From Chiloscyllium plagiosum (Eukaryota): a stretch of DNA of 64,000 nucleotides. The DNA lies in contig NC_057751.1 in assembly GCF_004010195.1 (NCBI RefSeq), forward strand, positions 14,277,483 to 14,341,482, given 5' to 3'. This document shows positions 29,446 to 51,465 of this stretch, one piece after another. The position numbers were made by a program, and so were the translations under genes. Positions within the stretch are counted from its first letter, which is position 1. Each line of letters opens with the position of its first letter. The notes beneath the pieces are model-generated. The model worked only from the letters and a program-made list of their open reading frames with translations, made no database searches and was not told where the DNA came from.

Positions 29446-30639
29446 TCTGTCTTTTAAGAGTACCAGCAACATTTTAATCAAAGGGAAAGTTGCACTTGCA
29501 GTCAGGGCAAAGAGCAGCAGGTTTCTTCATACTTCTGCCTCAATGCTTCCTGAATATATTTCTCCTTTTATGCGCTTTCCATCCCTGCCACAAAAGTCTC
29601 AAGAGCCATGCAATTTTGCAAGAAAGCAGTTCCTGTGGAATATTTATTCAACTGCCTTCCTCATCTTTCAGTCACGTTTTTGCATCCAGTATTTTGATTC
29701 CGTGACCTATTTGACGTTTACCTTGCGAGGTTGGTTTCACTCAATGCAGCAGTCACAGTCCGATCGAGAATGAAGATGCTGAACTAAAAGCTGCAACACT
29801 GACAAATAAGAACTTGGCCATTTTGAAAATCAATTGGCCCCTTCATTGAACTCCAAAGTTTGAAATCTTGAGTTGCTCTCATTGTTTTTTTTTCCACCCC
29901 CCCCAAGTGGTCCATTCCTTGGCCCAGGTGGGTTAACCACATGAATAATGAGCGACCGCTCCAGATCCCTTTGTGAAAAGATTGTGACAGTGATCAGAGA
30001 AGCATTCATGTCTAGGTGGAGATGGGACACTTGCTGTGCATAAAGTCCCGTAACACACGTAGTTGGTAATCCACTGCACTGATCCACGGTGGTACCCTCT
30101 GAGATCTGCAGATTAGCTTTAATTTAGCAGTTTCCTTCTTTTAGGGTCTGAGCAGCTGCATGACGCAATGCAAGAGACAGACCACACCGCTCATTTGTGG
30201 TACACAAAACTCAATTTTTTAAAAAAACGCATGTCATCAGCCAAAGTTTATACCAACGTTGATTAAACTGGGCACGTCGTAGCTGAATCTTTAGCTTATA
30301 ACTTTGAATGCAGATTTCTTGTGAAAACAGTTAGAGTTCCTCGGCCAGAATTTTTTTCCACCGTCAGCCTTTGCAACTTGAAGGGAGTGAATGCAGATTG
30401 TGGACACTGGAGCTGCCACATTCATCCAAGTGAAAGAGGTGGCTCCTTCCAAAAGGTGAGTGGATTGAGGGGTTTGGATTGCCAGTTATGCCTCAGAAGA
30501 TCAGCAAATGTGGTGCACACTAATCACCACCTGATTTCATTCGGCAATTTTTGGTTGACCTGTCCCATGAAGCTTAAGTGCCGTGTTGTGCTTCATATTC
30601 CTTAACAACTTCAGTTGGGAAGGGCTGGGTGTTATATTT

Positions 30640-30769
30640 GCCTGATGAAAGGCTTTTGCCAGAAACGTCAATTTCGAAGCTCCTTGGATGCTGCCCGAAC
30701 TGCTGTGCTCTTCCAGCACCACTAATCCAGTTTCTGGTTTCCAGCATCTGCAGTCATTGTTTTTACCTC
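30640..30769 (+). mobile_element. 130-bp hammerhead-bearing PLE family A unit with perfect 9-bp TSD
   Basis: GTTATATTT at 30631-30639 and 30770-30778. Starts 2 nt before CTGATGA-AA-GGC-TTTT-GCC-A-GAAAC-GTC (30642-30669) and closely matches 5203-5331. Confidence 0.85.
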
Positions 30770-30779
30770 GTTATATTTT

Positions 30780-31555
30780 ATTGATTCATGAGACATGGGT
30801 ATTGCTGGCTAAGGTATCATTTATTACTGAACTCTAATTGCACAGAGAGTCGTAAATGGTCAACTATATTGACTGTGGGTGATTGGCTTCTCGTGAAGAC
30901 AAAATCAGCCCAGGTGACAGAGGGTTGGAGGATTTGAGCTATAAGGAGAGGCTGAACAGGCTGGGGCTGTTTTCCTTAGAGTGTCGGAGGCTGAGTGGTG
31001 GCCTTATAGAGGTTTACAAAATTATGAGGGGGAATGGATGGGGTAAATATACAAAGTCTTTTCCCTGGGGTCGGGGAGTCCAGAACTAGAGGGCATAGAT
31101 TTAGGGTGAGAGGGGAAAGATATAAAAGGGACCTAAGGGATAACTTTTTAACACAGAGGGTGGTACGTGTATGGAATGAGCTACCAGAGGAAAAGGTGGA
31201 GGCTGGTACAATTGCAACATTTAAAAGGCATTTGGATGGGTATATGAATAGGAAGGGTTTGGAGGGATATGGGCCGGGTGCTGGCAGGTGGGACTCGATT
31301 GGGTTGGGACATCTGGTCGGCATGGACAGGTTGGACCGAAGGGTCTGTTTCCATGCTGTATATCTCTATGACAGACAATTTCCTTCAGGGACGTCAGTGG
31401 AACAGATGGGTTTTTAGAATAATCAACAGTGGTCGCAGTTGTATTAAGGAATTCACGTTTCACCATCTACCATGGTGGCATTTGAAAGCCAGAGCATTAG
31501 CCTTGGGTCTGAGTTTACATAGTTAGTCACGTTAATACAATGCCACAGTCTCACC
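30780..31555 (-). mobile_element. tRNA-derived SINE (second family), split by a HER1/CR1 insertion
   Basis: Tail ttcatgagacatgggtattgctggc and body cagatgggttttt..ttcaccatctaccatggtggcatttgaa..agagcattagcc; similar to 31556-32015 (+) and 39748-40900 (-). Confidence 0.55.
30921..31372 (+). mobile_element. HER1/CR1-type LINE 3' end
   Basis: GLEDLSYKERLNRLGLFSLE..LIEVYKIMRG / SRTRGHRFRVRGERYKRDLRDNFLTQRVVRVWNELPEE; tail gaccgaagggtctgtttcc..tctatgac. Confidence 0.92.
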
Positions 31556-32015
31556 CATGTGGTGATGCCACTGGATTGGTAACGTGAAGGATCAGGCTTT
31601 GCTGATCTTTGGAGACCGGTTCAGATCCCACTATCAAGATTAGAGTGGTGCTGGGCTTTTCCTGATGAAGCGCTGTTACCCGAAATGTCGATTCTCCTGC
31701 TCCTCAGATGCTGCCTGACGCTAATCTTGACTCTGACCTTCAGCATCTGCAGCCCTCAGTTTTGCCCTCAGATCCCACAATGGCAGCTGGTGAAGTGTAA
31801 ATCTGGATTTATCTATCACCCAGTGTTGTCAAAACCAGTCTGATTGAGGGCATGAAGTTTGCCATCTTTTCCTTGTCTGGCCTGCATGCGAATCCTGATT
31901 CGCAGCAGTACAGATTAACCTGGAAGTGTCCTTTGAAACAGCTCAGCAAACTCAAGGTCGGTTGGGGATGGGCAATAAGTACTGCCCTTACCGGCGATGC
32001 CCACACTCCATGAGA
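31556..32015 (+). mobile_element. tRNA-derived SINE (second family) interrupted by a hammerhead unit
   Basis: gtggtgatgccactgga..ggttcagatcccac[insert]aatggcagctggtgaa..ggatgggcaataa..gatgcccacactccatga. Confidence 0.6.
31632..31767 (+). mobile_element. Short hammerhead-bearing PLE family A unit with perfect 11-bp TSD
   Basis: TCAGATCCCAC at 31621-31631 and 31768-31778. Degenerate core CTGATGA-A..CCC-GAAAT-GTC from 31662. Short inverted 5' piece tcaagattag versus internal ctaatcttga. Confidence 0.8.
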
Positions 32016-33229
32016 CATTTGTCTTTACTTGTCCGTTCCATGTTGGAAATGTCAACTGCCATTGGAAATGTCAATCCAAGCTGCCATTCGCAACCCTATC
32101 CATATATTTGCACAAGGGTTTCCTGATTGCAGTCCAAAATGATTTGGTTTTAATGTTGAGTGTAAAGCTCTTTGTTCTGGTCTAAGCAACGGAGGAAATT
32201 TACTTATCTCGGGCCGTTGTCCTCAATTCCATCATTTCTCACCTTGTTGAGCATAGACTTTCACACAACATGCATTCATAAGTACGTCATCTCACCCTGG
32301 TCAAAAGTGTGTGAATCTATAATGGGCCCCTCCGATGGGCTGTTATACCTTGCCTGAGGTATGTGTGTGTAAAACTGAACATAGTACTTTAGTTGAGTTC
32401 CATCCAGGGTTCTGAGCAACTGAAGCAAAGCTTTTATATTTTAGCCTGTTGAAATATCCATCATTGTCTTTGTTCTCTTTATGGATGTTTGGTCTAACAC
32501 GCTGCATTTGAGTGATTTGTACCCATGAAGACCCATATCCCTAGACTCATTCAGAGGTTGTATTGGAGCGTTTTTGTTTTCGGATTCACTTGAACACAGT
32601 GATCGAGGTTTGTGCACTTGGTTTGTCTGTGAGTGTTTGTACCTTCGCTGTCCTGTCTGTGCACCTTCGTTTGCTTGCTAACTTGGTGTTGTGTGCAAAC
32701 CTGGATATACAGCTTTATTCCTCTAATAAATCCATTAATGTAAAGCTGAAGCAACAATAGAGAGATAGACGGAAGAGGGATTGCCGATGGAGTTTGGATG
32801 AGTATTTCTTAGTTACTTCACAGGGTATATAATGAAGAGGAATGGGTTAAATTGTTGTGCAGGGCAGGTTTACCATCAATTTATTTTTTTGCCATTCTTT
32901 ATCATAGCTCTGCAAGTTATCAATGCTGTTGACTCACTGAACTACCCTCTACCAGCGATGCAACATGCTGTTACTTGCAGTAATGCTGCAACCAAATGAG
33001 TGCAGCTTGCGATTGATGTCAGATCACAGCCTGACACCAGAACAATGTGGCATGACACTCCCTGGAGCAGAAAGTCTCACTCAACTGAAATTGTGGACTC
33101 CGTTCAGGTGCTCACATCTGAATCGTGGTCCCAAGTTTAACATTGGGGTGAGGTGACTTTGACTTTATAACAATACTCTGTTTTTTTTTTGAAGTGTGGT
33201 TGAATAAGTAAAGCATTGAGACACAGCAG

Positions 33230-34250
33230 AAAGATGTGAAGATTAATCACTTTCCTGAAATTGATATGTTAATTGATACCTCGATAAAATGGCTCCAAGA
33301 TGAACAAGCTCAGGCTTCTCAGCCTCCCTGTGCTTCCATCCTTGGGATCTTACTGAAAGCCCTCTCATCTTTCATGAATGAGGTAAGCAGAAATGAGTTC
33401 AGCATTTATGAATGGGGCCTAACCAGAGCTTTATCTGCTCATCACTTCTACTTCTGGCATTGATGCCTTTGTGTTTGAAGCCCAAGATCCCCCAAGCTTT
33501 GCAAACCACTCTCGTTGTGCCCTGCAATCTTCAAGGTTTGATGGATATGCAGCCCCAGGCCCCTCTGTTCCTGCACACTCTTTACAGCTGCACTGTTAGG
33601 TTTATATTGCCTTTCCAATCGCTTCTGCCAAGATGTATTATGCTGTAGTCTCTATATTAAATCCCAGCATGTCTGTCCGTTATCTTGATGCCCTGTTGTA
33701 GACAATTGGAATCCTCCTTATTCCTCCAAGTTTGGTATCACAAGTAAATATTGTAATTTGTCTCTGCATTCCAGAATCCAAGTATATTCATGTATTTTTT
33801 AAAAATGCAGGAGACCTTTGGGAAACACCACAGTCTCCCACCTTCCAGTCTGAACTTGGTGTTTTCTGTCCATAAGACATTTCGAAAGTCCACTTGTACA
33901 TTGCTGTTCCTATACCTTAAGCCTCTGTGTTGAACATCCTTTTAGATGGTGCTTGGTAAAATTCATGCAGACATCATTCACAGCCTTTCTTCAGTCCATT
34001 CTCTGGTCATCAAAAAATTCAGTGAGATCAATCAAGGCAAGATATGCCTTGGAAAATATGTGCTGGATATTCTTCATGAACTGCAAGTGTCCATTGACTC
34101 CATCCCAACCAATTGTAAAACCTTGTCCATCATAGATATTAAACCGTCTTAGCCTATCATTGCTGAAACTGCCTTTCCACCTTTTGTTTAATAATGGTGT
34201 TATGTTTACTCTCCAATCCTCTGGCACCTCTCGATCTTGAGGGAATGTTG
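33230..34250 (-). mobile_element. Old CR1 LINE ORF2 remnant
   Basis: EVPEDWRVNITPLLNK and LIDLTEFFD motifs on the minus strand, heavily degenerate. Confidence 0.6.
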
Positions 34251-34439
34251 AAATATTAAGGTCATCACCACTGCCGCCACCGTGAGGCAACTGGGTCTGC
34301 AAAATATTGGGACCGGATGAACCTATTCCTTCTGTTGTAGAGAAGGGGTCCCTGTGATTTTATGTCACTTCCAGTAAATGTTAATGACCACAATGCAAGC
34401 TTGATGGGTTATCTTAAGTTAGTGGTTAGAGTAACTATT

Positions 34440-34710
34440 AAAACAGACAAGGTGAGAGGAGAGAGATTTAAAAACAACATGGGACAGATTTTTTTTACAT
34501 AGAGGATGATTCACGTGTGGAAAAAACTTCCTGAGGAAGTGGAAGATGTGAGTACAATTAGAATGTTTAAAAGATATTTAGACGACTACATGAATAGGAA
34601 AGGTTTGGAGGGATACAGGCATGAGCGGGAAGGTGGGGCTAGTTAAGTTTGGATTATGATTGGAATGGACTGGTTGGACGGAAGGATCTGTTTCATGTTG
34701 TGTGACTCAA
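34440..34710 (+). mobile_element. HER1/CR1 LINE 3' end
   Basis: tacatgaataggaaaggtttggagggata..ggttggacggaaggatctgtttc. Confidence 0.75.
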
Positions 34711-35421
34711 CATCTCAAGTCCTGCCCAGCCATAGAATCTCATCCAACAGCAGATACATTTGGGCCTTGTAAACCTGGTTCACTATGTTCTATACTTCAT
34801 CTGGTACGAAGAAGGGAGGAACCATGATGATTGATTTAATCAGCCAAAGATTGGATTGCATGGCCAATGTAACAGGCATCTTCAGCACTGGAATTCCGAC
34901 ATGACCTTAATTTATGGTAAACAGGAAGTCTTTTGCAATAGATAGCAGTGTTGTTTTAGTAAGGCCAATTGTGTGGCCACTTCATAGTAGCAGATATTGA
35001 AATAGTTTGCATTTTTGGCATTTTGATGTCAATCAGGCCACCACTTTCAGACCTGAAAATGCCCAGTTTACCTCAAATTACCCTCGAACAGCCACATACC
35101 TCAACAAGAGTAGTTCCTGACAGCTTTTTTTTGAGTCTGAGTCAGAGCAGTGTCAGTTTTCACTAATGAGTGAGAGATTAATGTTGAGAGAAAAGCCCTT
35201 AAAATGCTGCAGGCCAGAAGTCTTCAGTTGTAGATTAGCAGTAGGTTTAAAATTAGTAACCAAAGGTTTTTGGTGCAACAGGTTAAGTCTCTGTTCTGCT
35301 CACCTTCTTCATGGCTTCAACAGGATGCGACATTTATTTTTGATACACAACGAATTGTTTGTACTCCTCTCAGTTTTGTGAGTTTGAGAAGCAGCTGATG
35401 GCACAGTCATGTTCAGGAGTC

Positions 35422-35559
35422 GAGGCAAAAGTGAGGACTGCAGATGCTGGAAGCCAGAGTTTAGATCAGAGTGGTGCTGGAAAAGCACAGCAGGTCAGGC
35501 AGCATCCGAGGAGCAGGAAAATCGAAGTTTCGGGCAAAAGCCCTTCATCAGGAATAGAG
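35422..35559 (-). mobile_element. Short hammerhead-bearing PLE family A unit
   Basis: Minus core 35524-35551 reads CTGATGA-A-GGGC-TTTT-GCCC-GAAAC-TTC; flanked by GGAGTC at 35416-35421 and 35560-35565. Confidence 0.8.
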
Positions 35560-37339
35560 GGAGTCTGAAGAGTTTAGCAGTTTATGCTCCAGGATCAAGA
35601 CCAAAAGTCGATGCATTGTGACTATTTACATTTCTAATGAGGACTTCATGCAGTCCGCAAGAGTGCAGTCTGTGGAGTGTAGGTGCTTAACTAGGCAAGA
35701 TGCAAAATTTTGATTGAAGTATAGGAATGAAGTTAGTGTGTTTGTGACTTTAGAACTTCACGCTGACCTGTGGTGGATTTCAATGCTTAATGGATTTGCA
35801 TGTGCTGAATACTTACTCAGATTCTTGTTTCCTATTGTATTCCTAAATTCAAGATGTTGGCCAGATACAGAAGAATCTGATAGTACCTGGTTTATATTTG
35901 TTGAAAGTTACCGTGCACGAGTTGGCTTTGTACAGTTGTGCAGAAGATCATAAATTTTCTCTTTTTGAACTCTCTCACCCTGGGGAAGGGAGGAAGGCAA
36001 TGGACTCTGAGCGAGGCTTGGACTAGAAACGTGTGAGGTGGGGTAGGTGAAGAATGGAGGACTGGAAGAAAGATTCAGGTAAGAAGAGGATGCAGTTAAA
36101 GGTGTTGAATAACGTAGGATGGGGCTTGGATGTGTTTTGGGGTTCAGTTGAAGTAATCGGGAGCCTAAAGAATGATGTCATCACTGTGTTAATGTGTCTC
36201 CATCTGTGTGTTGGCTAACAAAGGCCTTGAAGACTTTCAGTTGCCCTTGTTGAGTGTGATCTCAAACAATGGAAGGAAGGCTAGCTGAGCATGCAAGTTC
36301 AAGTCATTCCAACAGAGTGATGAGTAAAGCACAGGGCACAAACATGACCATTTAGTCAGGAGTGAACGCAAAAGCTCAATATTGTTCTATCTGCAATTAA
36401 CAAACTGGGCAGAGCTCCTGGAACCGTCAAACCAACAATCATGAATGTGCCATTCAGTTACCTCTCCTTAATTAGCCCAAACAAATAGCAATGACGCACA
36501 CATGAATGAAGTGAAAATATTGTCATGTGAAATATATACAGGTGAAATTGAACTTTGTAAAAAAGAGCTCTTGAGTCTTCAATGATTATATGATCAGGAA
36601 AGTTGTGACCTTGCTCTGAGCCTCCCCATTTGATCAGGTTTTCAGTTCTGTGAAGATGACTTGTTTCTTTCGGTAGTGGGTCAAAACAGCCCTTCCAAGA
36701 AATCATGTGACTGAAACTAAATGACCTGACAAGCTTGTGAATGCGATAATGACTCCAGTGTTTACTAAGCTGAGCTTATATAACCCAGAGAAGTCAAACA
36801 TCTCTGTGACTCTATGACAGTTTAGTTTCGGCAGTTATCAGGCCAAGCGAACTGAGATGAAGACTTAACATGTTTTAGCTGTACAAGTAGACAGGCCTGG
36901 AAAGGTTGGGAATGTGTTTTTTTTTAGTTTAGTGATTTAGCTTGCGTCTATCTGTCCAGAGAGAATTACATCTGAGCAATGTGCAGCATGACATCAAAAG
37001 AAAACCCTTGCACCTCATTGTTGATTAAGATGTTAGAGAGTAAAGTCTGGATTGATACATCACTCGGGTTGAGTATCTATAAAGAATACTGCTGGGAAAA
37101 GGGTTGTAACTTTACTGGTTATGATGAGATCTTAGCAAATTGTCTTGTATATAGTGTTTTTCTTCCTGTTGTTTTGTGTCACAAACTTATACTCTTCTGT
37201 TTGAAATGCATTGATAGCCTGTTGTGAATATATTCAGTGATGGACCATGATAATAGCCAAATCAAAAAAAAAGATAATTATGGACTTTCAGGCTAGGTTT
37301 CACACTGGTGTGACCGTACCATGAAGGGTAGAAGGGAGC

Positions 37340-37980
37340 CCTGATGTACCTCAGCAAAATGCGGCACCTCACCTTTATCTAAAACTCCATGTGCCCATCT
37401 GGTCACGGTCCTGTTGTACTATGAGGTAAGCTCCTTTGCTGTCCACTGCATCACCAATTTTGGTGTATGCAAATTTACTAAGCGTACCTTCTGTATTAAC
37501 ATCCAAATCATTTATGTACATGGCAAAAAGGCCTCCAGTCTGAAAAGCAGCTCCCCCACCCCAATCCTCTGTCTGCTACCTTTGAGCCAATTTTGAATCC
37601 AAACAGCTAGCTCCCCCCACCCCACCCCACCCCAGACACCTTGCTAACCAGTCTACCATGCAAAACCTTGTCGATTGCCTTGTTCAAGTCCATTGAGACA
37701 AGGTCCACTGCTCTGCCTTCATCAGTCTTTGTCACTTCAAAAAAACTTCATTAGGTTAGTGTGACATGATTTCCCAGGCACTAAAACCACGTTGACTATC
37801 CCTAATCAGTCCTTGCCTTTCCAATTGCACGTGAATCCTGTTCTTCAAATTCCCTCCAACAACTTTGCCACTGTTGACGTCAGGCTCAGCGGTCCACAGA
37901 TCACTGGCTTTTCCTTCGCAATTTTCTTCACTAGTGGCACCACATTAGCCAACCTTGTTTTCTGACACTTCACCTGTAGC
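37340..37980 (-). mobile_element. CR1 LINE RT remnant
   Basis: ccaattttggtgtatgcaaattt (KFA..TKIG) and accagtctaccatgcaaaaccttgtc (DKV.HGRL) on the minus strand. Confidence 0.65.
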
Positions 37981-37984
37981 TCTT

Positions 37985-38075
37985 GAGTTCTGAAGAAGGG
38001 TTGCAGGACCCCAAAATGTTAACTCTGTTTTCTCTCGACAGAGGCTGCCAGACTCCCCGAGTTGATCCAACAATT
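37985..38075 (+). mobile_element. PLE-type family C terminal repeat with degenerate hammerhead
   Basis: GAGTT-CTGAAGA-A-GGGT..GACCC-CAAAAT-GTT-AACTC; stem I GAGTT/AACTC is perfect, GAAA is mutated. Confidence 0.65.
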
Positions 38076-38197
38076 TCATGCACATGCAGTCGTCATCAGC
38101 TCGGATCGCCAAAGAATAACAGAAGTGATCTGCTGCATGAGAATACCATTTGGACTGTCATGCACTCACTCTTCAAATGAGCACCATTACTTGGTGC

Positions 38198-38952
38198 TGT
38201 TATAACACGGAGGTGAACCGTTCTGTTAATTAAACCAAACACCCAGAAAAGCTCACCTCGCCCTGTAATCTGCTAAAATATGAGTGATGGAGAACTCCCA
38301 AATTCCACTGTTTAAAGAAAATAATATCAATTTATTCTTTAACTCTAAAGGTGAACATAAAACACCAACTATTCACAATTCTCAGTGCCCCCCTTTCTCT
38401 TAACTGCTTACTACATGCCTTCAACTTTATAATAATATGCTGTTCCAGTAAAACACTTAGTAAAATTACATGAATTAATTTCAAAACCATACAGCGGCTG
38501 TCATCATCAGTGACTTTGTTCTTATGGTTGAAGATCTCCCTGGGTCGTTGTCTGTCTTTTTATTGTGAGAAGATACCTTTGATAGAGAGCGTTTCAATGT
38601 CTCGGAGGTCTCTCTCGATGGCAGTTTTGATTTTGATTTTGATTTTGAAATTCTGATTTTCAAAATGCCTGCCTTTTTTTATATCCCCAACCTTCGATCG
38701 TCTCACTGGCTTGATGGTGACAAAACAATAAATTCAAACTTGATTGGATTTTAGTATCCCGGGGCAAATTTTTAAACTGGTTAAATTCAAATTGTTGTCA
38801 AAAGAGCAATCAACTTAAGTATCTATTTCACAGCTAAATGTTATATATTTTCAATTTTCCAGTACACTCTGAGACTGCTCTTGTAAGCTCTCAGTGCAGA
38901 ACAGCATTCACTCCATCTTAAAGGTACAGGACATGCCTTTAACTTCATAACA
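38198..38952 (-). mobile_element. Solo LTR, 755 bp, perfect 4-bp TSD
   Basis: Termini TGTTAT...ATAACA (6-bp inverted repeat), GTGC at 38194-38197 and 38953-38956. A 4-bp TSD is compatible with Ty3/Gypsy or class I ERV. Confidence 0.8.
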
Positions 38953-39511
38953 GTGCCAGTCTCCTCCTTTTACCCCATACCCAATGCACCATTATATCTG
39001 CACAAATAACCATCCAATGCCCTTTGACTGCGTCAACTGAACCTGTTTCCACCACATTCTAGACCCTTGCTACTCGCGAGGTGAGTTTCTTTTTTCCCCT
39101 TGCAATCACTTATTTTGTATGTCACTAAATCTCTGCCCTCTCATTTTGGAGCCTTCGATGAATTGGAAGTTTCTATCTACTCTAACCACCCGCTCATAAT
39201 TTTAAAAATCTTTATCAGATCTCCTGTAAGCCGCCAACTCTCAAATAAGAACTGATCTAACCTCTCCAGTCTCGCCTTGGAACTGAAATCTCTCATCCCT
39301 GGAGCCACTCTTATAAATGTCTTGCGCATTTTATCCAATGCAATCCCATATTATGTTGCCCATAACTGTACACAGACAGTTGAGATAAAGTTTTTAAAAT
39401 TGCTTTAAACAGACAGTAATAACCAAGGTGTTACTAAACTGGAATGCTAGTAGCAGTAACGTTCCCCTGTTTTCTGTTGTGACTACTGCTGTCCAAATGT
39501 GCATGAGAGAG

Positions 39512-39523
39512 ATGTGTGTATAT

Positions 39524-39569
<46 letters not shown>

Positions 39570-39834: not shown

Positions 39835-39935
39835 CGTTTGGACAAAGGGTCACCGGACCCGAAACGTTAACTTTGATTTCTCTTCACAGATGCTGTCAGA
39901 CCTGCTGAGCTTTTCCAGCAGCTCCTGCTTTTGTT
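39835..39935 (+). mobile_element. PLE-type family C terminal repeat inserted in a SINE
   Basis: A-GGGTC-ACCG-GACCC-GAAAC-GTT-AACT (39846-39872), then cagatgctgtcagacctgctgagcttttccagc; the CUGANGA box is degenerate. Confidence 0.7.
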
Positions 39936-40144: not shown

Positions 40145-40845
40145 GTTGTGGATATGTTCTCCGAGCTGGGGTGTTGATTTGCAGACGTTTCGTCCCCTGT
40201 CTAGGTGACATCTTCAGTGCTTTGGAGCCTCCTGTGATGCGCTGTTGTACTGTGTCATCTGGAATGTATTTGGTTCTGTTCCTGCTTTTCCGGTTGTTTG
40301 TTGTAATGGCCGGTACATTGGGTCCAGGTCTATGTGTTTATTGATGGAGTCTATGGGTGAGTGCCGTGCTTCTAGAAATTCCCTGGCTTTCCTACGTTTA
40401 ACTTGTCCTATGATTGTGACGTTGTCCCAGTCGGATTTATGACCCTTGTTCTCTGTCTGTATGGCTATGAGGGACAGCTGGTCTCGGCATTTAGTAGCTG
40501 GTTGGTGTTCATGGATGCTGATTGCTAATTGTCTGCCTGTTTGTCCTACACAGTGATGCATGCAGTCTTGTAAATTACTTTAGTCTTGCACATGGTGGGT
40601 ATAGGGTCTTTTGGCCTGTTGAGTCGTTGTCTGAACGTGGTTGTCGGTTTATGGGTTATCATGATTTTGAGTGGTTGGAGAAGTCCAGCTGTCAATTCAG
40701 AGACCTTTTTTAATGTAAGGTAGTGTGGCTAGTGTGTTAGGTCGGGACATGTCGTCATCACGTTTGTCTGTGAGGCATGTGTGGATGAAGTTGCAGGGAT
40801 ATCCATTCTTGGCGAATACGCTGTAGGGGTGTTGTTCTTTGTTCC
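40145..40845 (-). mobile_element. Penelope-like element (family D), GIY-YIG remnant and 3' end, nested in a SINE
   Basis: HCVGQTGRQLAISIHEHQ..DWDNVTIIGQ..AREFLEARHS..INKHIDLDPMY, highly similar to 11655-12345. SINE halves lie at 39748-40140 and 40846-40900. Confidence 0.88.
40181..40220 (-). ncRNA. Minimal hammerhead ribozyme, intact core (family D)
   Basis: Minus strand: GCA-CTGAAGA-T-GTCACC-TAGACA-GGGGAC-GAAAC-GTC-TGC. Stem I GCA/TGC, stem II 5 of 6 pairs, GUC triplet. Confidence 0.78.
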
Positions 40846-42030: not shown

Positions 42031-42619
42031 GTTTTATTCTTCAACCTGCTTCAGATTTGCTTTCTGTTTTTTTCCAGTTAATTTGGACAGGCAAATCACC
42101 CATGATTCGCATTGTCCTTATCCCATGAGCACCCTCTATTTCTTCTTGTACAATTTGTCCCACATTTTGATGACTGATATGCCCAACTCCATGAGATTTT
42201 TCCCGAACTGTTGCTCATCTCCAGGTCAAACACATTTTCTATCCTGATCTCCTTAACCAAGGTCATTTCTCATGATGACATCAATGACATCTTTGATTAA
42301 CATTTCTAGCCCTCCGTCTTTGCCGAACATCCTATTCTTCATAAATCCCATGCGGTCCTCTACATTGAATACACAATTGTCATCATTGTGCAGCCAAGCC
42401 TTTGTTCTTGATGTCACATCATTCTTCTTTCAGTTGATGTCCACTATAAATCTGTTTACCTTTCTATGGGTGCAGCACGCATTCAGGTACAGAACTTTCC
42501 TCTTTTTGTTGTCTCACCTCTGTGACATTTCATCTCCACTTTTGTTGTGTCCTCAAGTTTATTCTCTTCATCCCTTCCAGTCATTCTCTGACTTTGATTT
42601 CCCATTTCATTGTCTGATT

Positions 42620-43165
42620 GGAGGGAGACAGGAAACTATAGGCCGGTTAGCCTGACCTCATTGGTTGGTAAGATTTGAGAGTCTGTTATTAAGATTAGAT
42701 TACAGTGTGGAAACAGGCCCTTCAGCCCAACAAGTCCACACCGACCTGCCGAAGCGCAACCCACCCATACCCCTACATTTACCCCTTAGCCAACACTACG
42801 GACAATTTAGCATGGCCAATTCACCTGACCTGCACATCTTTGGACTGTGGGAGGAAACCGGAGCACCCGGAGGAAACCCACGCAGACACGGGGAGAACGT
42901 GCAAACTCCACACAGTCAGTCGCCTGAGGCGGGAATTGAACCCGGGTCTCTAGCGCTGTGAGGCAGCAGTGCTAACCACTGTGCCACCGTGCCGCCCACG
43001 ATGAGATTGTGGAGTAGTTGGAAGTTCATGGGCTGATTCAGCATGGCTTTATCAAGGGGAGGTCATGCCTGACAAATCTGTTTGAATTCTTTGTGGCACG
43101 AATGAGTAAGTTAGACAAAGGAGAGCCAGTGGATGTGTTCCACTGAATTTCCAGAAGGCCTTGAA
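42620..43165 (+). mobile_element. CR1 RT fragment split by an HE1 SINE
   Basis: GNYRPVSLTSLVGK before the SINE and QHGFIKGRSCLTNLFEFF..LDKGEPVDV after it. Confidence 0.85.
42691..42997 (-). mobile_element. HE1-type V-SINE, near-intact
   Basis: The reverse complement begins gggcggcacggtggcacagtggttagcactgctgcctcacagcgc with B box gggttcaattccc, and ends cactgtaatctaatct; CpGs are retained. Confidence 0.93.
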
Positions 43166-44599
43166 ACCGAAATAAATTGCTGAGGCTGTATAAGGCAGAG
43201 ATTAAAATAAACAGAACAGTATACGCAGTTTATCCAACGCTCATTCTGCTCTTCAACTGGATTCGTGAGCCCAGCTGAGTGTGTTATACTTTAGGAAGGA
43301 TGTAAAGGTATGAAAGGGAGTACCAAACAGCTTCACTAATCTGGTTGGAGACATTGTGTGATTATAGTGCTCAAGATCGGCTGGAGAAGCCAGGTTTGCA
43401 GTCTTTAGAACAGAGAAGGCCAAGAGGAAAGTTGATTGAAATTCGCAATCTGTTTAGTTGGGTGAGGAGTGAAAAACTTTATGCAGTGGCTGAGGGATCA
43501 AGAACTGGAAGATGGATATCAAATGTGATTGGCAAAAGAACTGAGAGATGGCAAGGAAAAAGTAATGAACACAAGAAATGGTTAGGATCTGCAATGTGTT
43601 GTCTGATACGTGATAGTTAGATTAAGTAACAGCCTTTAAAAAAGGAATTGGATTTTTTTTTGCTCTCCTCTCTGTCTGATTACACCGTCGCCGTGCACTT
43701 CATGCATTTTCCTTCATTGAAGACACTTGGTCAATGCAAGTTGTTGCTAAAGGGACAGAGAAACATAAACTAATGTTTGTAGGAGGTGAAATGACTCATT
43801 CTAAATACAGAGACCCAAATGCTTTGTAAAAGATAAGCGTTTGTGAGAGTTGAAGTGAGAATATGCTTAAGAAACAACAAGAGATATGGAGTGTTAGAGG
43901 ATTCAGGCTTTAGTCGATCGACAACTCGAATTTGAAAGATGTTGTTGAGTGAAAGAGTACACTAATTACTGGAGTACCTTTTTGGAAGGATGCATTAGTC
44001 ACTGAAAAGGCCATTCATAACCCTGGATTTAAACAATTACATTTAATTAGACTTCCAGTATGCGATTACAGTGTATCTTGGCAAGTCTGGAACTTGTTGG
44101 ATTGATGTTTTGGCAGACGATAAGGATATACATGATCAACATTCGCAGGTCAAGGCCGTCCATGAGAAAGCATGATTAAACGTAACCTCACTTACTGATT
44201 TGATAGGTGTGTGATGGCCAAACTGTTGAAATGCATACACTCACCTCATAAATGATTTGGTGATTGGAGAATTATGAGGGCTTTCTGAAACAAACCACAA
44301 ACACAATCCCGGTCAAAATGCTCCACTAAATATGTTGGAAATCTTTAAGCGGTAAGGTATCTGGGGTTGCTGTAAATGAGTCATCACGATGGGAACTCTT
44401 GAGTCCGCGGGATAAGCTGCTCCACATGAGGTGGACGGGTTCCTCAGAGGTGACGGGTCAGCTTGTGAGCAGCTGTACCCTAAATCAAGTCTTTGACATT
44501 CCAGCTTGCTGCCTCTTGGCTTTACCCGCCTGTCATATGACAGATGTTACTGAGTTAACTAGTATCCTTGCTCTCTGCTGCCATGTGTAAAAACGGCAC

Positions 44600-44775
44600 T
44601 CAAAGTCACAGGAGGGAAACAGACCCTCCGGTCCATGTCGATCAGATATCCTGAGCTAATCTAATATCATTTGCCAGCACTTGGCCCATATCCCTCTGAA
44701 CCCTTATTATCCATATACCCATCCAGATCCCTTTTAAATGTTGTCATTGTACCAGCCTCCACCACTTGCTGTACC
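44600..44775 (-). mobile_element. HER1/CR1 LINE 3' end
   Basis: gaaacagaccctccggtcca..ccagcacttggcccatatccctct..cttttaaatgttgtcattgtaccagcctccacc. Confidence 0.75.
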
Positions 44776-44869
44776 TGTTAGCTGATTCTTGTGAAAACTA
44801 AAGCCCAACAGTCTAGCTTGTACATTGGAGGGATGTGTATGGCACAAGGGTCCAAACACCAAACTCGAT

Positions 44870-45225
44870 GTTGCCACTCCCAGTGTAGTACTGAGGGAGT
44901 GCTGCGCAACTGTAGGTGCTACCTTTCGAATGTGACGTTTTTTTGATCCTTCACGCGGATCTAAAAGACGGCCTGGCACGATTTTACAAAAGAGCAGGTG
45001 AGCTAATCGTACTTTCCTGACCAACATGTCTCCCTCCGATAATGTCATTAAAAAAACAACGGATGATCAAACCAATGTGCAATTGTCCTGGACGTGTGAG
45101 CTTACTTTGCATGAATTTGTTGCCACGTGACCGAAATTGCAACAACGACCAGGGTTGAAAAGTTGACTGGAGAGCAATTCGAGACATCTCGTGGTTACGG
45201 GAAGTACAATATAGATCCAAGTGCC
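44870..45225 (+). mobile_element. Deu-domain SINE
   Basis: cagtgtagtactgagggagtgctgc..aggtgctacctttcgaatgtgacgtt..aagagcagg. Confidence 0.7.
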
Positions 45226-45390
45226 CCTTTTCCCTCGGCTCTAGGGTGAGGTTGTGAACTGAGGCACACTTGGAGGACCAACCTGGCTTAAAAGCTGAAG
45301 GAGCTTTCTGGTGCTTCGCTGGAAGTGAACAAATCCTGACAATGTGGAGAACCTGAATGTGGAAGAAGGACTGAATCGAGGAAAAGGTAA

Positions 45391-45940
45391 TTAAATCAGG
45401 TCCTGGGGATTTATCCACCTTTAACTGTTTCAAGACATCCAGCACTTCCTCCTCTGTAATATGGACATTTTACAAGATGTCACCATCAATCTCCCTACAG
45501 TCTATATCTTCCATATCCTTTTCCACAGTAAACACTGATGCAAAATATTCATTTAGTATCTCCCCCATTTTCTGTGGCTCCACACAAAGGCTGCCTTGCT
45601 GATCTTTGAGGGGCCCTATTCTCTCCCTAGTTACCCTTTTGTCCTTAATATATTTGTAAAAACCCTTTGGATTCTCCTTAATTCTATTTGCCAAAGCTAT
45701 CTCATGTCCCGTTTTTGCCCTCCTGAATTCCCTCTTAAGTATATTCCTACTTCCTTTATACTCTTCTAAGGATTCACTCGATCTATCCTGTCTATACCTG
45801 ACATATACTTCCTTCCTTTTCTTAACCAAACCCTCAATTACTTTAGTCATCCAGCATTCCCTATACCTACCAGTCTTCCCTTTCACCCTGACAGGAATAT
45901 ACTTTCTCTGGATTCTTGTTATCTCATTTCTGAAGGCTAC
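45391..45940 (-). mobile_element. CR1 LINE ORF2 EN-RT linker fragment, young
   Basis: Open frame IQRKYIPVRVK..EIALANRIKENPKGFYKYIKDKR..GEILNEYFASVFT..LKVDKSPGPD. Confidence 0.9.
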
Positions 45941-46264
45941 TATAATGAAGGAAGATGAGGTTAGGTGGTAGGAAGAATAGAGAAGCTGAATATTATTTAA
46001 ATGGGGAAAAACTGTAGAGAGCTGCAGCACAGAGGGATTTGGGGTCCTTGTGCATAAATTACAGAAGCAGACAAATTTAACAGAAAAGGCAAATGGCGTG
46101 TTGAATTTTATTTCACAGGGAATGGAGTACAAAAATAGGGGTTTCTTGTTAAGATTATACAAGGTACAGTCAGACCACATTGTGAGCAATTTTTGCCGTC
46201 CTTATCTTAGTCAAAGTATTCTGGCATCAGAGGCTGTCCAGAGAAGGCTCATTTGGCTGAACCC

Positions 46265-46640
46265 AGGCACAGAGCAATAACAACAGAAATGGGTAGAGAA
46301 ACTCAGCAGGTCTGGCAGCTTCAGTGGAGAGAAAGCAGAGTTAATGTTCTGAGTCCAGTGACCCTTCTCAGGACTGAGTGTCAATTGGAGAAGGTAGTCT
46401 ATGTGCTGATGGCACATGGTGGAGGGGAAAGGAGTGAGTGAGCAGGTGAAGATGGAATAGAGAGAAAGTAAAGCGGACTAAGAGATGGATGATAGTGAGC
46501 CAGGAAAGGAGAAAAGCAAATAATGGGGGCAATGAGGAGGTGAAAATAGTTGCTTGTTCTGAAACCAGCCCATGTCAGACATGGAAGGTGGTGTTCAAGC
46601 TCTGAAATGCTCAGACTTGATATTGAATCCAGGTGGAAAA
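46265..46640 (-). mobile_element. PLE-type family C 3' end with degenerate hammerhead
   Basis: agaaactcagcaggtctggcagc..gagttaatgttctgagtccagtgacccttctcagg, followed by a purine-rich tract like other PLE 3' regions. Confidence 0.55.
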
Positions 46641-46679
46641 AGATATCTTTTTGATGGAACATTCATGATTACAATCCCA

Positions 46680-47535
46680 CTCTGGTCCCTTCCCGCAACT
46701 CTCTCCAGTACATCGATCACATCATCGGTGTCGTCTCCCCCTCTCATTTGGAATTGGAAAAGTTGATTCATTTTGCTTCTGGTTTCCACCCTGCTCTCAC
46801 CTTCAGCTGGTGCGTCTTTGACTTCTCCCTCCCTTTCCTGTTTGCAGATGATATCCTCTGCCGAACCACTGACTTCCACAGTGAGCTGAACTGTGCATCC
46901 CCACAGTGAGCTGAACTGTGCATCCTCACAGCGAGCTGAACTGTGCATCCCCACAGTGAGCTGAACTGTGCATCCTCACAGTGAGCTGAACTGTGCATCC
47001 TCACAGTGAGCTGAACTGTGCATCCCCACAGCGAGCTTCCTGTAAACACTCCATTCCATCCACCCTGATGGTTCTTCCATCTGCAGGAGACCTCAGTCAT
47101 GTCCACCGCTGTGACTGACAGGAGCCACCGCTGTGTCTCACCCTGCTCCCCCCACTTCGGCCCTCATCCCCTCTCTTCCCTCCCAAAACACTGAACAGAT
47201 CCTCCTCATTCTCACTTGCCGTTCCACCAGCATTGACATCTCAAGGACTTGAAGCTGCCATTTCTGCCACCTCCAGTAGGACGCCACCACCATACACCTC
47301 TCCTCATCATCTCACAGGGACCGTTCTCTCCAGGGCACCCTGGTCCACTCCAGCACCTTCCCACAACCCGATGGCATCTTCAGGTATAACTTCCCCCGTT
47401 CTCACTATCCAGGGCCCAGGCACACCTTCCAGATGAAGTAGTACTTTACCTGTGCTTCTTCCCACAAGCTCGTCTATTCCTTACAATGTGGTCTTCTCTC
47501 CACTGGGGAGGCAAAGAGCAGACTGGGTGACTACT
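46680..47535 (+). mobile_element. Degenerate Penelope-like RT remnant
   Basis: LQYIDHIIG (YIDD site decayed), FHPALTFSW, SLPFL, PTDFHS..SCKHSIP. Confidence 0.65.
46877..47037 (+). repeat. 25-bp minisatellite, about 6.4 copies
   Basis: Unit cacag(t/c)gagctgaactgtgcatcc(c/t) starting at 46877, 46902, 46927, 46952, 46977, 47002, and partial at 47027. Confidence 0.95.
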
Positions 47536-47544
47536 TCCCCAAGT

Positions 47545-48830
47545 TCCCAAATCATCTTCTCTTCACGGTTAAAAACAGAGGAGAAATATTCTTTGAAAAC
47601 CTCACCTAGCTCCTGTGGTTCTACACATACACGTCCACTTTGGTCCTTGAGGGGTCCTATTCTCTCTCTAGTTATTCTTTTTGCTTTAATATACTTGAAG
47701 AACCTCTTTGGATTCATCCTAACCTTCTCAGTCAAGACTATCTCGTGCCCTCTTTTTACCCTCCTGATTTCCTCCTTCAGTAAACTCCTGTATCCCCTAT
47801 TTTCCTCCAAGGATCCCCTTGATCCCAGCTGATTGTACCTGAGCCATGTCTCTTTTTTTTTTGGTCAAACCTCAATATCTCTCATCATCCAGGGTTCCCT
47901 ATTCCTATCAACCTTTCCCATCATTCTCACAGGAACATATAGACCTTGAACTCGAGCTATATCACTTTGAAAGGTTGTGATACTCACTTCAATCATAAAT
48001 TAATTTTGTCCCATTTGCCAGCACTCTTAAACCCTTCCTATTAACGTACCCATCCAGATGCCTTTTAAATGCTGTCATTGTACCAGCCTCCACCACTTCC
48101 TCTGGCAGTTCATTCCATGCAGGTACCACCCTCTGCGTGAAAAAGTTGCCCATTAGATCCCTTCTTTATCTTTCCCATCTCACCCTAAACCTATGCCCTC
48201 CAGTGCGGACTCCTCCACCCCAGGGAAAAGACTTTGCCTATTTACCCTATCCATGCCCCTCATGATTTATAAACCTCTCAGCCCTCAGCCCCAGCCTATT
48301 CAGCCTCTCCCTGCAGCTCAAACCCTCCAACCCTGGCAATGTCCTCATAAATCTTTTCTGAACCCTTTCAAGTTTCGCAACATCCTTCCGATGGAAAGGA
48401 GACCGGAATTGCACGCAGCATTCCAACAGTGGCCTTAACCGATGTCCTGTCCAGCCGCAACATGACCTCCCAATTCCTGTACTCGATACTCTGACCAATA
48501 AAGGAAAACATACCAAACGCCTTCTTCACTATCCTATCTACCTGCAACTGCACTTTCAAGGAGCTATGAACCTGCACTCCAAGGTCTCTTTGTTCAGCAA
48601 CACTCCCTAGGACTTTACCATTAAGTGTATAAGTCCGACTAAGATTTGCTTTCCCAAAATGCAGCACCTTGCATTTATCTAACTTAAACTCCATCTGCCA
48701 TTTCTCGGCCCATTGGCCCATCTGATCAAGATCCCACTGTACTCTGAGGTAACTTCCTTCGCTGTTTGCGACACCTCCAATTTTGGTGTCATCTGCAAAC
48801 TTACTAACTATACCTCCTCTGTTCACACAG
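47545..48830 (-). mobile_element. Two adjacent CR1/HER1 LINE ORF2 fragments
   Basis: 47545-47975: KVRMNPKRFFKYIKAKR..EYFSSVF. 48010-48830: SKFADDTKIGG..WAEKWQMEF..KCKVLHFG..LERVQKRF. Confidence 0.9.
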
Positions 48831-49190
48831 TGATCTCATTGAATGGTAGAGCATACTTGATGGGCTAAATGGCCTATGTGGTGGAATTGTCTTCCTCACA
48901 GAAGCTTCAGATATTTTTCAGGCAGAGATGGTAAGCAAGGTTATTTTGGAGGAGCAGGAATACAGACTTGAGGTTACGTTGAGATCTGTCATGTTCTGAT
49001 TGACTAAGGAAGCAGGCTTGGGAAGACCAAATGGCTGTCTCCATGTGATTCATGCTTTGCTAAGCAACCTTCATCCAGGCTGTTATCGGCTGGACCTCAG
49101 AGAAGGACTTTGGAAAGCTACACCATGTGACCAGTCTCCTTGGAAATTGGTCAATTTTGAAGAAATTTGAACTTCCTCCTATCAGCTGAA

Positions 49191-49230
49191 AGATTCCTGA
49201 AGAAGGGCTCATGCCCGAAACGTCGATTCT
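49191..49230 (+). ncRNA. Minimal hammerhead ribozyme, intact core (family A)
   Basis: AGATTC-CTGAAGA-A-GGGC-TCAT-GCCC-GAAAC-GTC-GATTCT. Stem I has 5 pairs plus one U.U, stem II is a perfect 4 bp, predicted cleavage is after C49224. Followed by a PLE tail to ~49285. Confidence 0.8.
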
Positions 49231-49284
49231 CCTGCTCCTCGGATGCTGCCTGGCCTGCTGTGTTTTTCCAGCACCACATTTTTT

Positions 49285-49607
49285 CTCTCCTGTAAGACCC
49301 TGGGTTTGATTTTAGCTTTTGTCCCAAGGCGTGTATGTGTGGATTTTTGCTAGTATTTGGAACAGTATCATTAAGTTGGGATAATCTGTTGGGTTTTTGG
49401 ACAGGTCGTTATTCTATTTTCTGTTCTCTTTTGTTTGTCTTTCATTCGGTAATGTTGTAAATAAATTCTGTTTTTAAAACTAAGTGGTTTGACCAGCTGA
49501 TTCTCTCCTGGAATATCCACTTACACCTGCTTAAAATGACAAGCAAAGTTAGGGTATGGGCTACTTTCTTGAAATGTTTTTGAGGGGGTCTGGCCTGGTC
49601 CATAACA
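49285..49607 (+). mobile_element. LTR-like element 3' part
   Basis: Contains AATAAA and ends ggtcCATAACA; homologous to 9929-10285 and to the reverse complement of 9289-9450. Confidence 0.6.
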
Positions 49608-50356
49608 CACTCCTTGGTGTCTCAATCATCAGAGTAAACAGTCCACCGGGAATGCAATGAGGACATGTCTACCCACTCGGCTGAGCAGTACCTTGGTGTC
49701 GTCTGCCTCCAGGTGCAGTTGTTGACTTCCAGCGTTTCTAAAATCAACTCCCAGTGGGAAATCCTGGTCTGATGGCCTTTGTTCCCCCAGGTCATGCCAG
49801 AACAAAGCTCCTGACATTCCTGCAAGGCACATTGTGTGAATCTCTTCGAACCAGAGTCACTGTCATCTCCGGCTGACTCTCAAACAGTCTTTTCTCTCTG
49901 TCACCGCAACAGAAAGTGCTGGAGAAACTCAGCAGATCCGGCAGCATCTGTGGAGAGAGAAAGCAGAGTTGAGATTGAGAGTGCAGTGACCCTTTTCTCT
50001 CTGTTGACTGCACAGAACCTTGGAGAGTTCCATTGATTTGTGAGGGAGTCTGCTCGAGATCGAAGGAAGGTTTAGATTATGCTACTCAGAACAGAAGATC
50101 AATCAACCTACCCAGGCCGACCATCAATGAGCTCAAATGACCCCTTCATTTCCTGTGGTTAATAAGATGATGAGAACATGACCCAAACAAGCAGGGGTTC
50201 ATAGAAATAAGAAACGTTGAGAATAATTAGACCCTTGAAACAAATAAGTGAAAGAATGTGCAGTGAGAAACTGGAGCAGTGGAGAGGTCACCAGAAAGGG
50301 CCACCCCTCTCTAGCATGTGGTGTCATATCCAAAGTGCTGACTGGTTAGCGTGAGG

Positions 50357-50485
50357 AGACAGTGAGGTCTGCAGATGCTGGAGATCAGAGTTGAGAGTGT
50401 GTTGCTGGAAAAGCACAGCAGGTCAGGCAGCATCCGAGGAGCAGGAGAATCGACATTTCGGGCCAGAGCCCTTCATCAGGAATGA
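50357..50485 (-). mobile_element. 129-bp hammerhead-bearing PLE family A unit with 13-bp TSD
   Basis: GGTTAGCGTGAGG (50344-50356) / GGTTAGAGTGAGG (50486-50498). Minus core 50452-50479 reads CTGATGA-A-GGGC-TCTG-GCCC-GAAAT-GTC. Confidence 0.85.
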
Positions 50486-51465
50486 GGTTAGAGTGAGGTT
50501 TATCTTTTCAAGTCTCATCGACATCTTCATTCATGTGTAATTAGCATCCATTCTGATTTGGGCTGAATTGGAAGGTCGAGAAAGTGAAATTTCATTGCTA
50601 ATTTCTTCACTTTGGAGTCAGAATGTATATGTTTCACTGTGTGGTTTCCCCCAAGGATTAGAATGAGTTGTGAACATTTTTTAACATTGTGTCCACTCCA
50701 GGAAGGTGACACGTTGCAATGGATAGCAGCTATGTGTTATTACATCCTTGTATCATTTCATCGGACTTTGTTTCAATGTGTCATTCTGCCCTGTTTGTGA
50801 TGTGGGGTGGATGGTGAATAGTTTTTAAAATACCAAAGAGATTTTCATTGATCAATAGAACAGCAACTTAGCAAATAGTACAAGGGCTGAACATGAACAT
50901 TCGAACTGTCAGCAGAATATCGTGAGGCAGATTAAAAGCCAAAGACATGGCAGTTTGCAAAAAAAGGCCATCTGAAGATTCATCGGCAGACAGGAACAGA
51001 GCACAGAAAAGAACAAAGGCTGGAGATGACGGCAGGTCAGACAGCAAGCTAGCGTTTGAAGTCAAAATGACTCTCTGCCTCCTGCCAGAAAAACACTGTA
51101 GACAATTTCACTCTCACTTTGACGAGATGGAATCTACCATGGACTGCAAAACCTTCTCTGAGTCTCGAAGATTTATGGCCACTCAACCTACTGAGAGCAG
51201 CAGTCATGAAGCGTTTCACTGGCCAGGTGTTCTCCCTTATCCAATCTGGTCTTTCACTCTTCCTTCATTCTGCAATTACATCCATTCGAAGTTGTTAGAA
51301 ACAGCTAGTTGACAAGATTTTCCTCCCTCGTTTCAAGCTCGAGGAGATGTGGTCAGGCTATCATGCTATTTTGGAATCTCTGAGGATACTTGCCCTCCTC
51401 ATCACCCATCATTCCTAACCCCTTTCTGCAGGTCTTTAAATTCCAAAGATCATCTTTAATCCATT

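What the first reader, a model, noticed from the sequence alone, without database searches (positions are those of the whole stretch)
30631..50498. ~130-bp stand-alone 'ribozyme + tail' units flanked by target-site duplications (retrozyme-like)
Seen: 30640-30769 (TSD GTTATATTT), 31632-31767 (TSD TCAGATCCCAC), 35422-35559 (GGAGTC) and 50357-50485 (13-bp TSD, one mismatch) are 129-138 bp, non-coding, and consist of the hammerhead plus a ~100-nt tail. Three begin within 2-8 nt of CUGAUGA, as does the 49191 copy. Inference: either a non-autonomous PLE-mobilised mini-element defined by its ribozyme, or a strong 5'-truncation hotspot at the ribozyme fold. The 5' ends lie at the ribozyme start and not at the GUC cleavage site, which is not what simple cleavage-defined monomers would give.
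Basis: partly seen in the sequence, partly recalled or inferred. Interest (0 to 1): 0.7.

Follow-up and report, generated by a model that had tools for sequence, protein, structure and literature searches.

The report
Ribozyme-headed stubs of Penelope retrotransposon
These 130-base inserts are real, very abundant end-pieces of an ordinary Penelope-type jumping gene rather than a separate ribozyme element, and their shared start just before the ribozyme likely marks where the copying enzyme ran off the front end of the parent's RNA.

Summary
The four units and their duplications are real; one has an empty site in a related organism. Each is the hammerhead-plus-tail end of a GIY-YIG Penelope-like element (PLE, Neptune/Nematis type), and the same stretch is the 5' leader of its ORF. 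In 139 random 10-kb stretches, 139 of 217 measurable arm 5' ends lie within 13 nt of CUGANGA, 0 at -35..-14, 35 further upstream: a sharp hotspot, not smooth truncation. Short copies mix with long ones in a tree and arise inside the same insertions as ORF-bearing arms, so they are stubs, not a retrozyme family. Best mechanism (inferred, about 60%): reverse transcription starts at the tail near the RNA's front end and runs off it; a stall is the main rival. A smaller peak just 3' of the predicted cleavage site (18 vs 6 and 4) may record in-vivo self-cleavage. The layout is published; the hotspot was not found in six paper searches. This scan has reported it before, in this genome and in other genomes.

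The parts
30640..30769 (+). Single-arm PLE stub: hammerhead core (decayed stem II) plus tail, unit positions about 0..+127, with one extra G at the 5' junction
   Evidence: 96% identical to the long copy at 5203-5334; empty site in organism D
30631..30639 (+). 9-bp target-site duplication, left copy (right copy 30770-30778)
31632..31767 (+). Two-arm stub: 21-nt inverted arm (31634-31654, unit +72..+92) then main arm -2..+128 with an internal deletion; 11-bp duplication at 31621-31631 and 31768-31778
35422..35559 (-). Single-arm stub, about -7..+129; 6-bp duplication (weak) at 35416-35421 and 35560-35565
50357..50485 (-). Single-arm stub, about -5..+125; 13-bp duplication with one mismatch at 50344-50356 and 50486-50498; shared with organisms B and D
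49193..49282 (+). Tail-less stub, -3..about +88 (second 3' end class); no duplication found
54657..54829 (.). Head-to-head pair of arms: 54657-54720 (minus, -2..+60) and 54721-54829 (plus, +17..+127), flanked by a 16-bp duplication with 2 mismatches
4289..5334 (+). Long copy of the parent PLE: ORF piece 4289-4642, assembly gap 4643-5126, 3' end with hammerhead and tail
55499..55792 (+). Longer tail-less 3' copy of the parent (about -200..+90)
59531..59962 (-). Longer 3' copy of the parent (about -297..+123)

Best explanation
The units are short insertions of the hammerhead-plus-tail end of a Neptune/Nematis-type Penelope-like retrotransposon, likely dead on arrival and likely made when reverse transcription starts at the tail near the front of the parent's RNA and runs off its 5' end just before the ribozyme. 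Shown: the unit is both the 3' end of long copies and the 5' leader of the ORF; 3' ends fall in two classes (about +90 and about +126); many insertions are head-to-head pairs with one arm of each class inside one target-site duplication; 5' ends pile at -13..+13 with an empty zone upstream. Inferred, by analogy with the Anolis element PAc: the endonuclease nicks both target strands, each nick primes copying at one of two internal start sites, and the leader copy of those sites is the one followed by the downstream sequence that PAc needs. Inferred: the RNA begins about 3-10 nt before CUGANGA. Confidence that they are stubs of the parent is about 0.9; confidence in run-off as the cause of the hotspot, given that, is about 0.65.
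For: Unit continues directly into the ORF in L221, L023, L232; 960 first-look candidates for the post-tail sequence. 139 of 217 ends in -13..+13, 0 in -35..-14; unpaired arms alone 52 stop vs 38 pass. Copies chosen only for ORF 5' sequence: 5 of the 6 that reach +13 stop at -9..+11, 1 of 37 goes further. In L023 both an arm coming from the ORF and a 3' arm end at -6/-7. Arm fates are not independent: partners of ORF-bearing arms pass the zone in 8 of 14 cases, partners of short arms in 2 of 89, as expected if templates or priming sites differ. Pairs: 44 of 63 have one tail arm and one about +90 arm; duplications scoring 9 or more in 38 of 56 vs 1 of 300 controls. L037: an arm stopping at +8 is identical over 84 of 84 nt to the 3' end of the ORF-bearing arm in the same duplication. 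PAc starts copying at two internal sites that define the tail, extends both strands, needs the first 172 nt of the ORF and does not need ribozyme cleavage (PMC11167929, parts 1-2 of 4).
Against: No RNA 5' end was observed: the one usable RNA run (3'-type polyA single-cell library) showed no place where many molecules begin. The 5-of-6 stop rate on the ORF side is not distinguishable from the 76% (139 of 183) overall. Ends are spread over about 25 nt, not one base; about 35 lie upstream of -3 and aligner overshoot explains only part. The extra-G (cap) test is weak: 6 G of 8 purines at -3 ends, p=0.06; 26 G vs 18 A over -8..+1, confounded by inverted arms. The 8-of-14 set is one subfamily and was picked by search, the 2-of-89 set is mostly the other two. 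In D. virilis Penelope the start site lies 46 bp before an intron whose end meets helix I (PMC2377424 passages, PMC4209133), so a start at the ribozyme is not the rule in this class. No match to ORF sequence beyond the tail end was seen in short arms, so the test of template context was uninformative.
Confidence: 0.6

Rival explanations
1. Same parent, but the hotspot is a stall or cut: the enzyme starts at the 3' repeat and falls off (or the new DNA is cut) at the ribozyme front because of RNA structure, bound protein or an endonuclease-preferred ATT motif.
For: 24% of arms (44 of 183) pass the zone, so upstream template often exists. Some copies can fold a hairpin over about -8..+10. PAc endonuclease prefers ATT, and ATT lies at -3..-1. 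6 of 14 partners of ORF-bearing arms still stop there.
Against: Ends lie beyond stem II and at the far edge of the fold; whole units fold no better than shuffles (z -0.56 to +0.42). A fixed stall probability predicts independent arm fates, which was not seen (8 of 14 vs 2 of 89). 0 stops at -35..-14.
Confidence: 0.22
2. A self-propagating non-autonomous mini-element (retrozyme- or SINE-like): short copies are transcribed and re-copied in trans by the PLE protein.
For: Fixed-looking length, duplications and very high number (30 single tail-bearing hotspot copies in 1.34 Mb). One starred clade of 6 near-identical short copies. Short copies are slightly closer to other short copies (0.933) than to sampled long ones (0.918). 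Partial tandems of about 260-310 bp exist elsewhere (L233, L249, L256).
Against: Short and long copies mix in all three subfamilies (hot/long: 64/22, 6/3, 69/19). A long tail-less copy (L061) is the nearest long copy for 9 short arms and by eye carries that clade's diagnostic letters. No shared private 5' sequence or fixed 5' end; recurring junctions have swapped arm roles. No tandem arrays of the unit. Stubs lack the sequence downstream of the tail that PAc needs (analogy).
Confidence: 0.08
3. The pile-up is made at the joining step: two new DNA strands anneal at the quasi-palindrome over about -7..+11 and are trimmed there.
For: Many pair junctions have no inserted bases and 2-3 nt of shared sequence, and junctions such as +1/+11 recur.
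Against: Unpaired arms show the same hotspot (52 stop vs 38 pass, 0 between -35 and -14), and many pair junctions carry 1-14 untemplated bases instead.
Confidence: 0.06

Closest known systems
Endonuclease-bearing Penelope-like elements, Neptune/Nematis type (Craig et al. 2021, PMC8557442; passages seen)
   Same: C-terminal GIY-YIG, CX2-5CxxC linker, heavy 5' truncation, adjacent inverted truncated copy, one-sided 30-40-bp tail, partial tandems.
   Different: The passages seen do not describe a sharp pile of 5' ends at the ribozyme front or a majority of 90-130-bp insertions (123 of 168 events have no arm beyond -35).
Poseidon of Anolis carolinensis, PAc (Frangieh et al. 2024, PMC11167929; parts 1-2 of 4 read; supplement 2 held no text)
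   Same: Two 3' end classes about 36 nt apart; ribozyme and tail at the front of the ORF; both strands extended.
   Different: Different PLE clade; the paper maps start sites of copying, not where copies end; it found no RNA ends at the cleavage site, whereas a minor peak lies there here.
Minimal hammerheads of metazoan PLEs (Cervera and De la Pena 2014, PMC4209133; parts 1-2 of 4 read)
   Same: CUGANGA core, extra base before stem II, G-C base of stem II, palindromic minimal helix III; mostly solo motifs that the authors ascribe to truncated PLEs.
   Different: Stem II here is 4 bp; no shark family or end mapping in the parts read.
Metazoan non-LTR retrozymes (PMC7229834, passages; bioRxiv 10.64898/2026.07.22.740005, parts 1-3 of 5)
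   Same: Small, non-coding, type I hammerhead, PLE-related; solo monomers are described.
   Different: Retrozymes are tandem repeats of 150-450 bp with cleavage-defined monomers and circular RNAs; these units are dispersed singles or head-to-head pairs that mostly start before the cleavage site.

Membership tests
EN+ Penelope-like element (parent) | RT plus C-terminal GIY-YIG endonuclease in one ORF | tested here: met
   Pfam GIY-YIG 23.9 bits over cut-off 22.6 in L049; Atlas hits GIY-YIG/HTH_animal clusters at 0.97; RT-like motifs read by eye in L038. Pfam gave no hit for 5 other pieces nor for the L257 piece.
EN+ Penelope-like element (parent) | Terminal repeat with hammerhead at both ends, one-sided tail, inverted truncated partner | tested here: met
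   L221, L023, L232; 44 of 63 pairs tail + about +90.
Neptune/Nematis clades | CX2-5CxxC motif in the RT-EN linker | tested here: met
   C-x4-C-x2-C before GIY-YIG in L049, L059, L222; definition from PMC8557442.
Neptune (as against Nematis) | Placement in RT phylogeny | not tested
   No reference PLE proteins were fetched; 'Neptune' over 'Nematis' is recalled, not from a call.
PLE minimal hammerhead | CUGANGA, paired stem II, GAAA, NUH site | tested here: met
   65 of 136 arms covering the core pass the pattern (46 of 61 in the young D group, 15 of 69 in the older B group, 4 of 6 in C); stem II paired in 24-26 of 27 long copies, without real covariation. 2 of the 4 named units pass.
PLE minimal hammerhead | Self-cleavage (as dimer or with protein) | not testable with these tools
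   Only indirect: minor 5'-end peak at +29..+38.
Non-LTR retrozyme | Head-to-tail tandem repeats each with a hammerhead | tested here: not met
   No array of the 130-bp unit in 139 random stretches; the 7 same-strand neighbours are longer partial tandems, nested copies or a 44-bp core-less array.
Non-LTR retrozyme | Monomer ends set by ribozyme cleavage | tested here: not met
   139 of 217 ends at -13..+13, 19 of 217 at +29..+38; 3' ends at about +90 and +126.
Non-LTR retrozyme | Linear and circular monomer RNAs | tested here: inconclusive
   PolyA single-cell reads listed no tail-to-head joint, but that library cannot test circles and the tables were cut.
Non-autonomous family (SINE-like) | Own lineage and own fixed 5' end | tested here: not met
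   21 label changes vs 24.0 shuffled (33 of 500 shuffles as low), at least 9 forced by starred branches; ends spread.

The most novel reading that the evidence does not exclude
The genome's roughly 4x10^5 insertions of this family are a fossil map of the PLE RNA: the main pile of 5' ends marks a transcription start placed directly on the hammerhead's first helix, most retrotransposition events are abortive two-strand copies of this 130-nt leader, and the smaller pile beginning at +29 records self-cleavage of a minimal PLE hammerhead in the germ line, for which the papers read report no in-vivo evidence.
Probability: 0.3. Interest if true: 0.62.

Novelty: new variant of a known kind. Interest (0 to 1): 0.36.

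Why it matters
How Penelope-like elements insert, and what their ribozyme does in vivo, are open questions (PMC11167929, PMC4209133). A sharp, countable pile of ends in a vertebrate genome gives direct predictions: where the RNA starts, that both strands are primed at two fixed sites, and that a minority of templates are cut at the ribozyme site. It also warns that ribozyme or retrozyme counts in such genomes are inflated by dead stubs. The element class and its insertion layout are known, and this scan has already reported the hotspot many times.

Tried and rejected
Rfam at gathering thresholds: 0 matches in the window. Run search: no RNA holder listed; X22 laid no reads; X21 showed no start or end pile; none of this bears for or against expression. 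Empty sites: found for 30640 only; 50357 shared; 35422 and 31632 not resolved in the cut tables. Folding of whole units: no better than shuffles. PDB sequence search: nothing meaningful. Match to ORF sequence beyond the tail end as a marker of template context: chance level in short and long arms. Splice acceptor as the cause: candidate AG sites differ by subfamily (about -7, -17, -27, read by eye) while ends do not, and no shared upstream exon was seen at junctions; rejected. Fold-back of one cDNA as sole cause of pairs: cannot explain short partners of kilobase arms. First extra-G script was flawed, since a variant reference absorbed the G; redone, result weak. Planned further 400 kb of random sample was not obtained, so the sample stayed at 1.39 Mb. 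Figure S2 of PMC11167929 (genomic end coverage in Anolis) is an image and could not be read; it may already show a similar pile. Preprint supplements were not seen.
Full report
Observation. The four units and their flanking repeats are at the stated coordinates. Duplication scores are 9 (30640), 10 (50357) and 6 (35422); mismatched-flank controls reach 9 in 3 of 300 and 6 in 75 of 300, so the last is weak. The 11-bp repeat of 31632 was read directly; that unit begins with a 21-nt inverted arm (short inverted arms in 5 of 83 singles vs 3 of 83 control flanks, so this class as a whole is not enriched, but here the arm lies inside the duplication). A contig from organism D runs from 30630 to 30770, omitting one repeat and the unit; 50357 is present in organisms B and D. 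The 49191 copy has no tail and no repeat of 7 bp or more. That the host is a shark is taken from the finding and earlier notes, not from a call.

The parent. The unit is the 3' end of longer copies in the window (4289-5334 with a gap, 55499-55792, 59531-59962). The ORF piece at 4344-4640 has 53,411 first-look candidates in the genome. Long copies carry RT-like motifs, a C-x4-C-x2-C linker and a GIY-YIG domain, which fits the Neptune/Nematis type as defined in PMC8557442 (passages). The same unit also stands at the front: in L221, L023 and L232 the tail runs straight into the ORF, and in L232 one frame is open from before the ribozyme through 349 codons. Coordinates below use +1 = C of CUGANGA; predicted cleavage is after +28.

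End mapping. I fetched 139 stretches of 10 kb at fixed round positions (1.39 Mb, 46 kb N; two flank the window). A profile of the last 1.2 kb gave 307 hits; those with score 40 or more reaching +30, plus their adjacent partners, made 168 events (105 single, 63 head-to-head pairs; 231 arms). 14 arms were set aside as censored by gaps or edges, leaving 217. 139 of 217 5' ends lie at -13..+13, 0 at -35..-14, 35 beyond -35 and 43 after +13. The stop rate is 5.3% per nt at -8..+3 (93 of 147 at risk), 1.5-1.6% in the two adjacent bins, and 0-1.2% upstream. Controls: 0 of 56 long copies are falsely stopped there; 180 uniform cuts gave 14 true and 15 called in -8..+3; a cut at -3 is called at -3 in 113 of 168 and overshoots in 52. 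Long young copies are often gapped in this assembly, which biases against them, but 9 censored long arms were kept at risk. 3' ends cluster at about +85..+95 and +120..+130. Density is 125 events per Mb, roughly 4x10^5 genome-wide by extrapolation; 30 events (22 per Mb) are single tail-bearing hotspot copies like the named ones.

Pairs. 44 of 63 pairs join one tail arm and one arm ending near +90; 11 more have a tail arm and a shorter one. In the first sample 38 of 56 pairs had a duplication scoring 9 or more, mostly 13-17 bp, against 1 of 300 controls; singles 19 of 81 against 3 of 300. Both arms fall in the same subfamily in 57 of 63; the partner is in the top tenth of matches in 25 of 42 testable pairs. 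This matches the published layout (inverted truncated partner, one-sided tail; PMC8557442) and the two internal start sites and two-strand extension of PAc (PMC11167929, parts 1-2 of 4).

Separate family? A tree of 73 short and 27 long tail-bearing copies (128 columns, weakly resolved; long set enriched for search-picked copies) needs 21 label changes, 24.0 in shuffles (33 of 500 as low); starred branches force at least 9. Window examples: 30640 pairs with the long 5127 copy. All three subfamilies have both classes (subfamily labels are rough pattern calls). One starred clade holds 6 short copies only; the long tail-less copy L061, which could not enter the tree, shares its diagnostic letters by eye. 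Arms that stop in the hotspot occur inside the same duplication as ORF-bearing arms: L037 (+8, 84 of 84 nt identical to the long arm's end) and L220 (+1, 88 of 90). No tandem arrays of the unit were found. Retrozymes as described (PMC7229834 passages; bioRxiv 2026.07.22.740005 parts 1-3 of 5) are tandem and cleavage-defined. So the mini-element reading fails its tests here, though a small trans-mobilised fraction is not excluded.

Why the hotspot? To look at copies that come from the ORF side, I took 38 of the 40 best matches to ORF 5' sequence (2 were already held). Of 37 uncensored, 31 stop between +284 and +21, 5 at -9..+11 and 1 at -104. So the front boundary of near-full-length copies coincides with the hotspot, but 5 of 6 is not distinguishable from the overall 76%. 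Partners of ORF-bearing arms pass the zone in 8 of 14 cases (10; 5 shorter partners not counted), against 44 of 183 overall (p about 0.01) and 2 of 89 for partners of short arms (the Fisher test there used 2 of 88); the sets differ in subfamily and in how they were picked. Dependence between arms fits differing templates better than a fixed stall. PAc needs RNA downstream of its start sites; by analogy the leader copy is the natural priming site and a bare stub is not a template. The bases around -3 resemble an initiator (YYANWYY; motif recalled), and D. virilis Penelope has an internal TATA-less promoter in the repeat (PMC2377424 passages), but its start is upstream of an intron. An extra G at the 5' junction, a lead from earlier notes, is only weakly supported here: 6 of 8 at -3 ends, p=0.06. 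No RNA 5' end was observed. Run-off is therefore the best inference, not a result.

Minor peak. 19 ends fall at +29..+38 against 6 and 4 in the flanking ten-base bins; after dropping one internally deleted copy, 18 (p=0.0008, window chosen after seeing the data). None lies at +25..+28. One or two more may be decayed longer arms, and 16 of 19 are in the older B group, 1 in D. This fits cleaved templates or a stall at the 3' strand of helix I about equally.

Novelty. The class, ribozyme, tail and inverted pairs are published. Six paper searches returned no description of the 5'-end pile; an unreadable supplementary figure might show one. Earlier notes of this scan reach the same reading in this and other genomes; my reading was recorded before seeing them, and they are not independent support. 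Verdict: real, a variant of a known kind, moderate interest.

Noticed in passing
L233, L236, L241, L243, L246, L249, L252, L235: Partial tandems in which a 3' copy starting at about -72..-78 is joined to ORF sequence about 100-150 nt past the tail; junctions differ, suggesting a template-jump hotspot. L233/L236, L249 and L256 repeat such 260-310-bp units, each with a ribozyme: these, not the 130-bp units, are the retrozyme-like candidates.
   Followed up: partly
L023:1500-2290 (minus): One 15-bp duplication encloses an inverted arm, a leader plus about 500 nt of ORF, and a second ribozyme-tail unit; both direct units start at -6/-7.
   Followed up: partly
L124:2226-2837: Array of about ten 44-bp repeats of unit +31..+75, without the ribozyme core, inside a two-arm insertion.
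   Followed up: no
L229:2859-2952: A tail-less stub of one subfamily inserted, with a 12-bp duplication, into the ORF of a long copy of another.
   Followed up: no
unit about +45..+54 with +108..+116: A 9-bp stem is paired in 24-27 of 27 long copies across subfamilies, with little covariation; it encloses the +90 end class.
   Followed up: partly
window 11662-12346 and 40178-40845; 6421-6536, 39858-39922, 49916-49956: A second, distinct PLE family (GIY-YIG-like frame at 11684-12226, no Pfam hit) and weak older ribozyme-tail relatives.
   Followed up: no
window 3412-3591 and 24039-26879 (+): Exons of a MYST-family acetyltransferase gene (Pfam MOZ_SAS, E 1e-10) and a 947-codon acidic frame that is probably its last exon; the named units lie downstream.
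   Followed up: partly
window 61828-64000: Long low-complexity tandem repeat.
   Followed up: no
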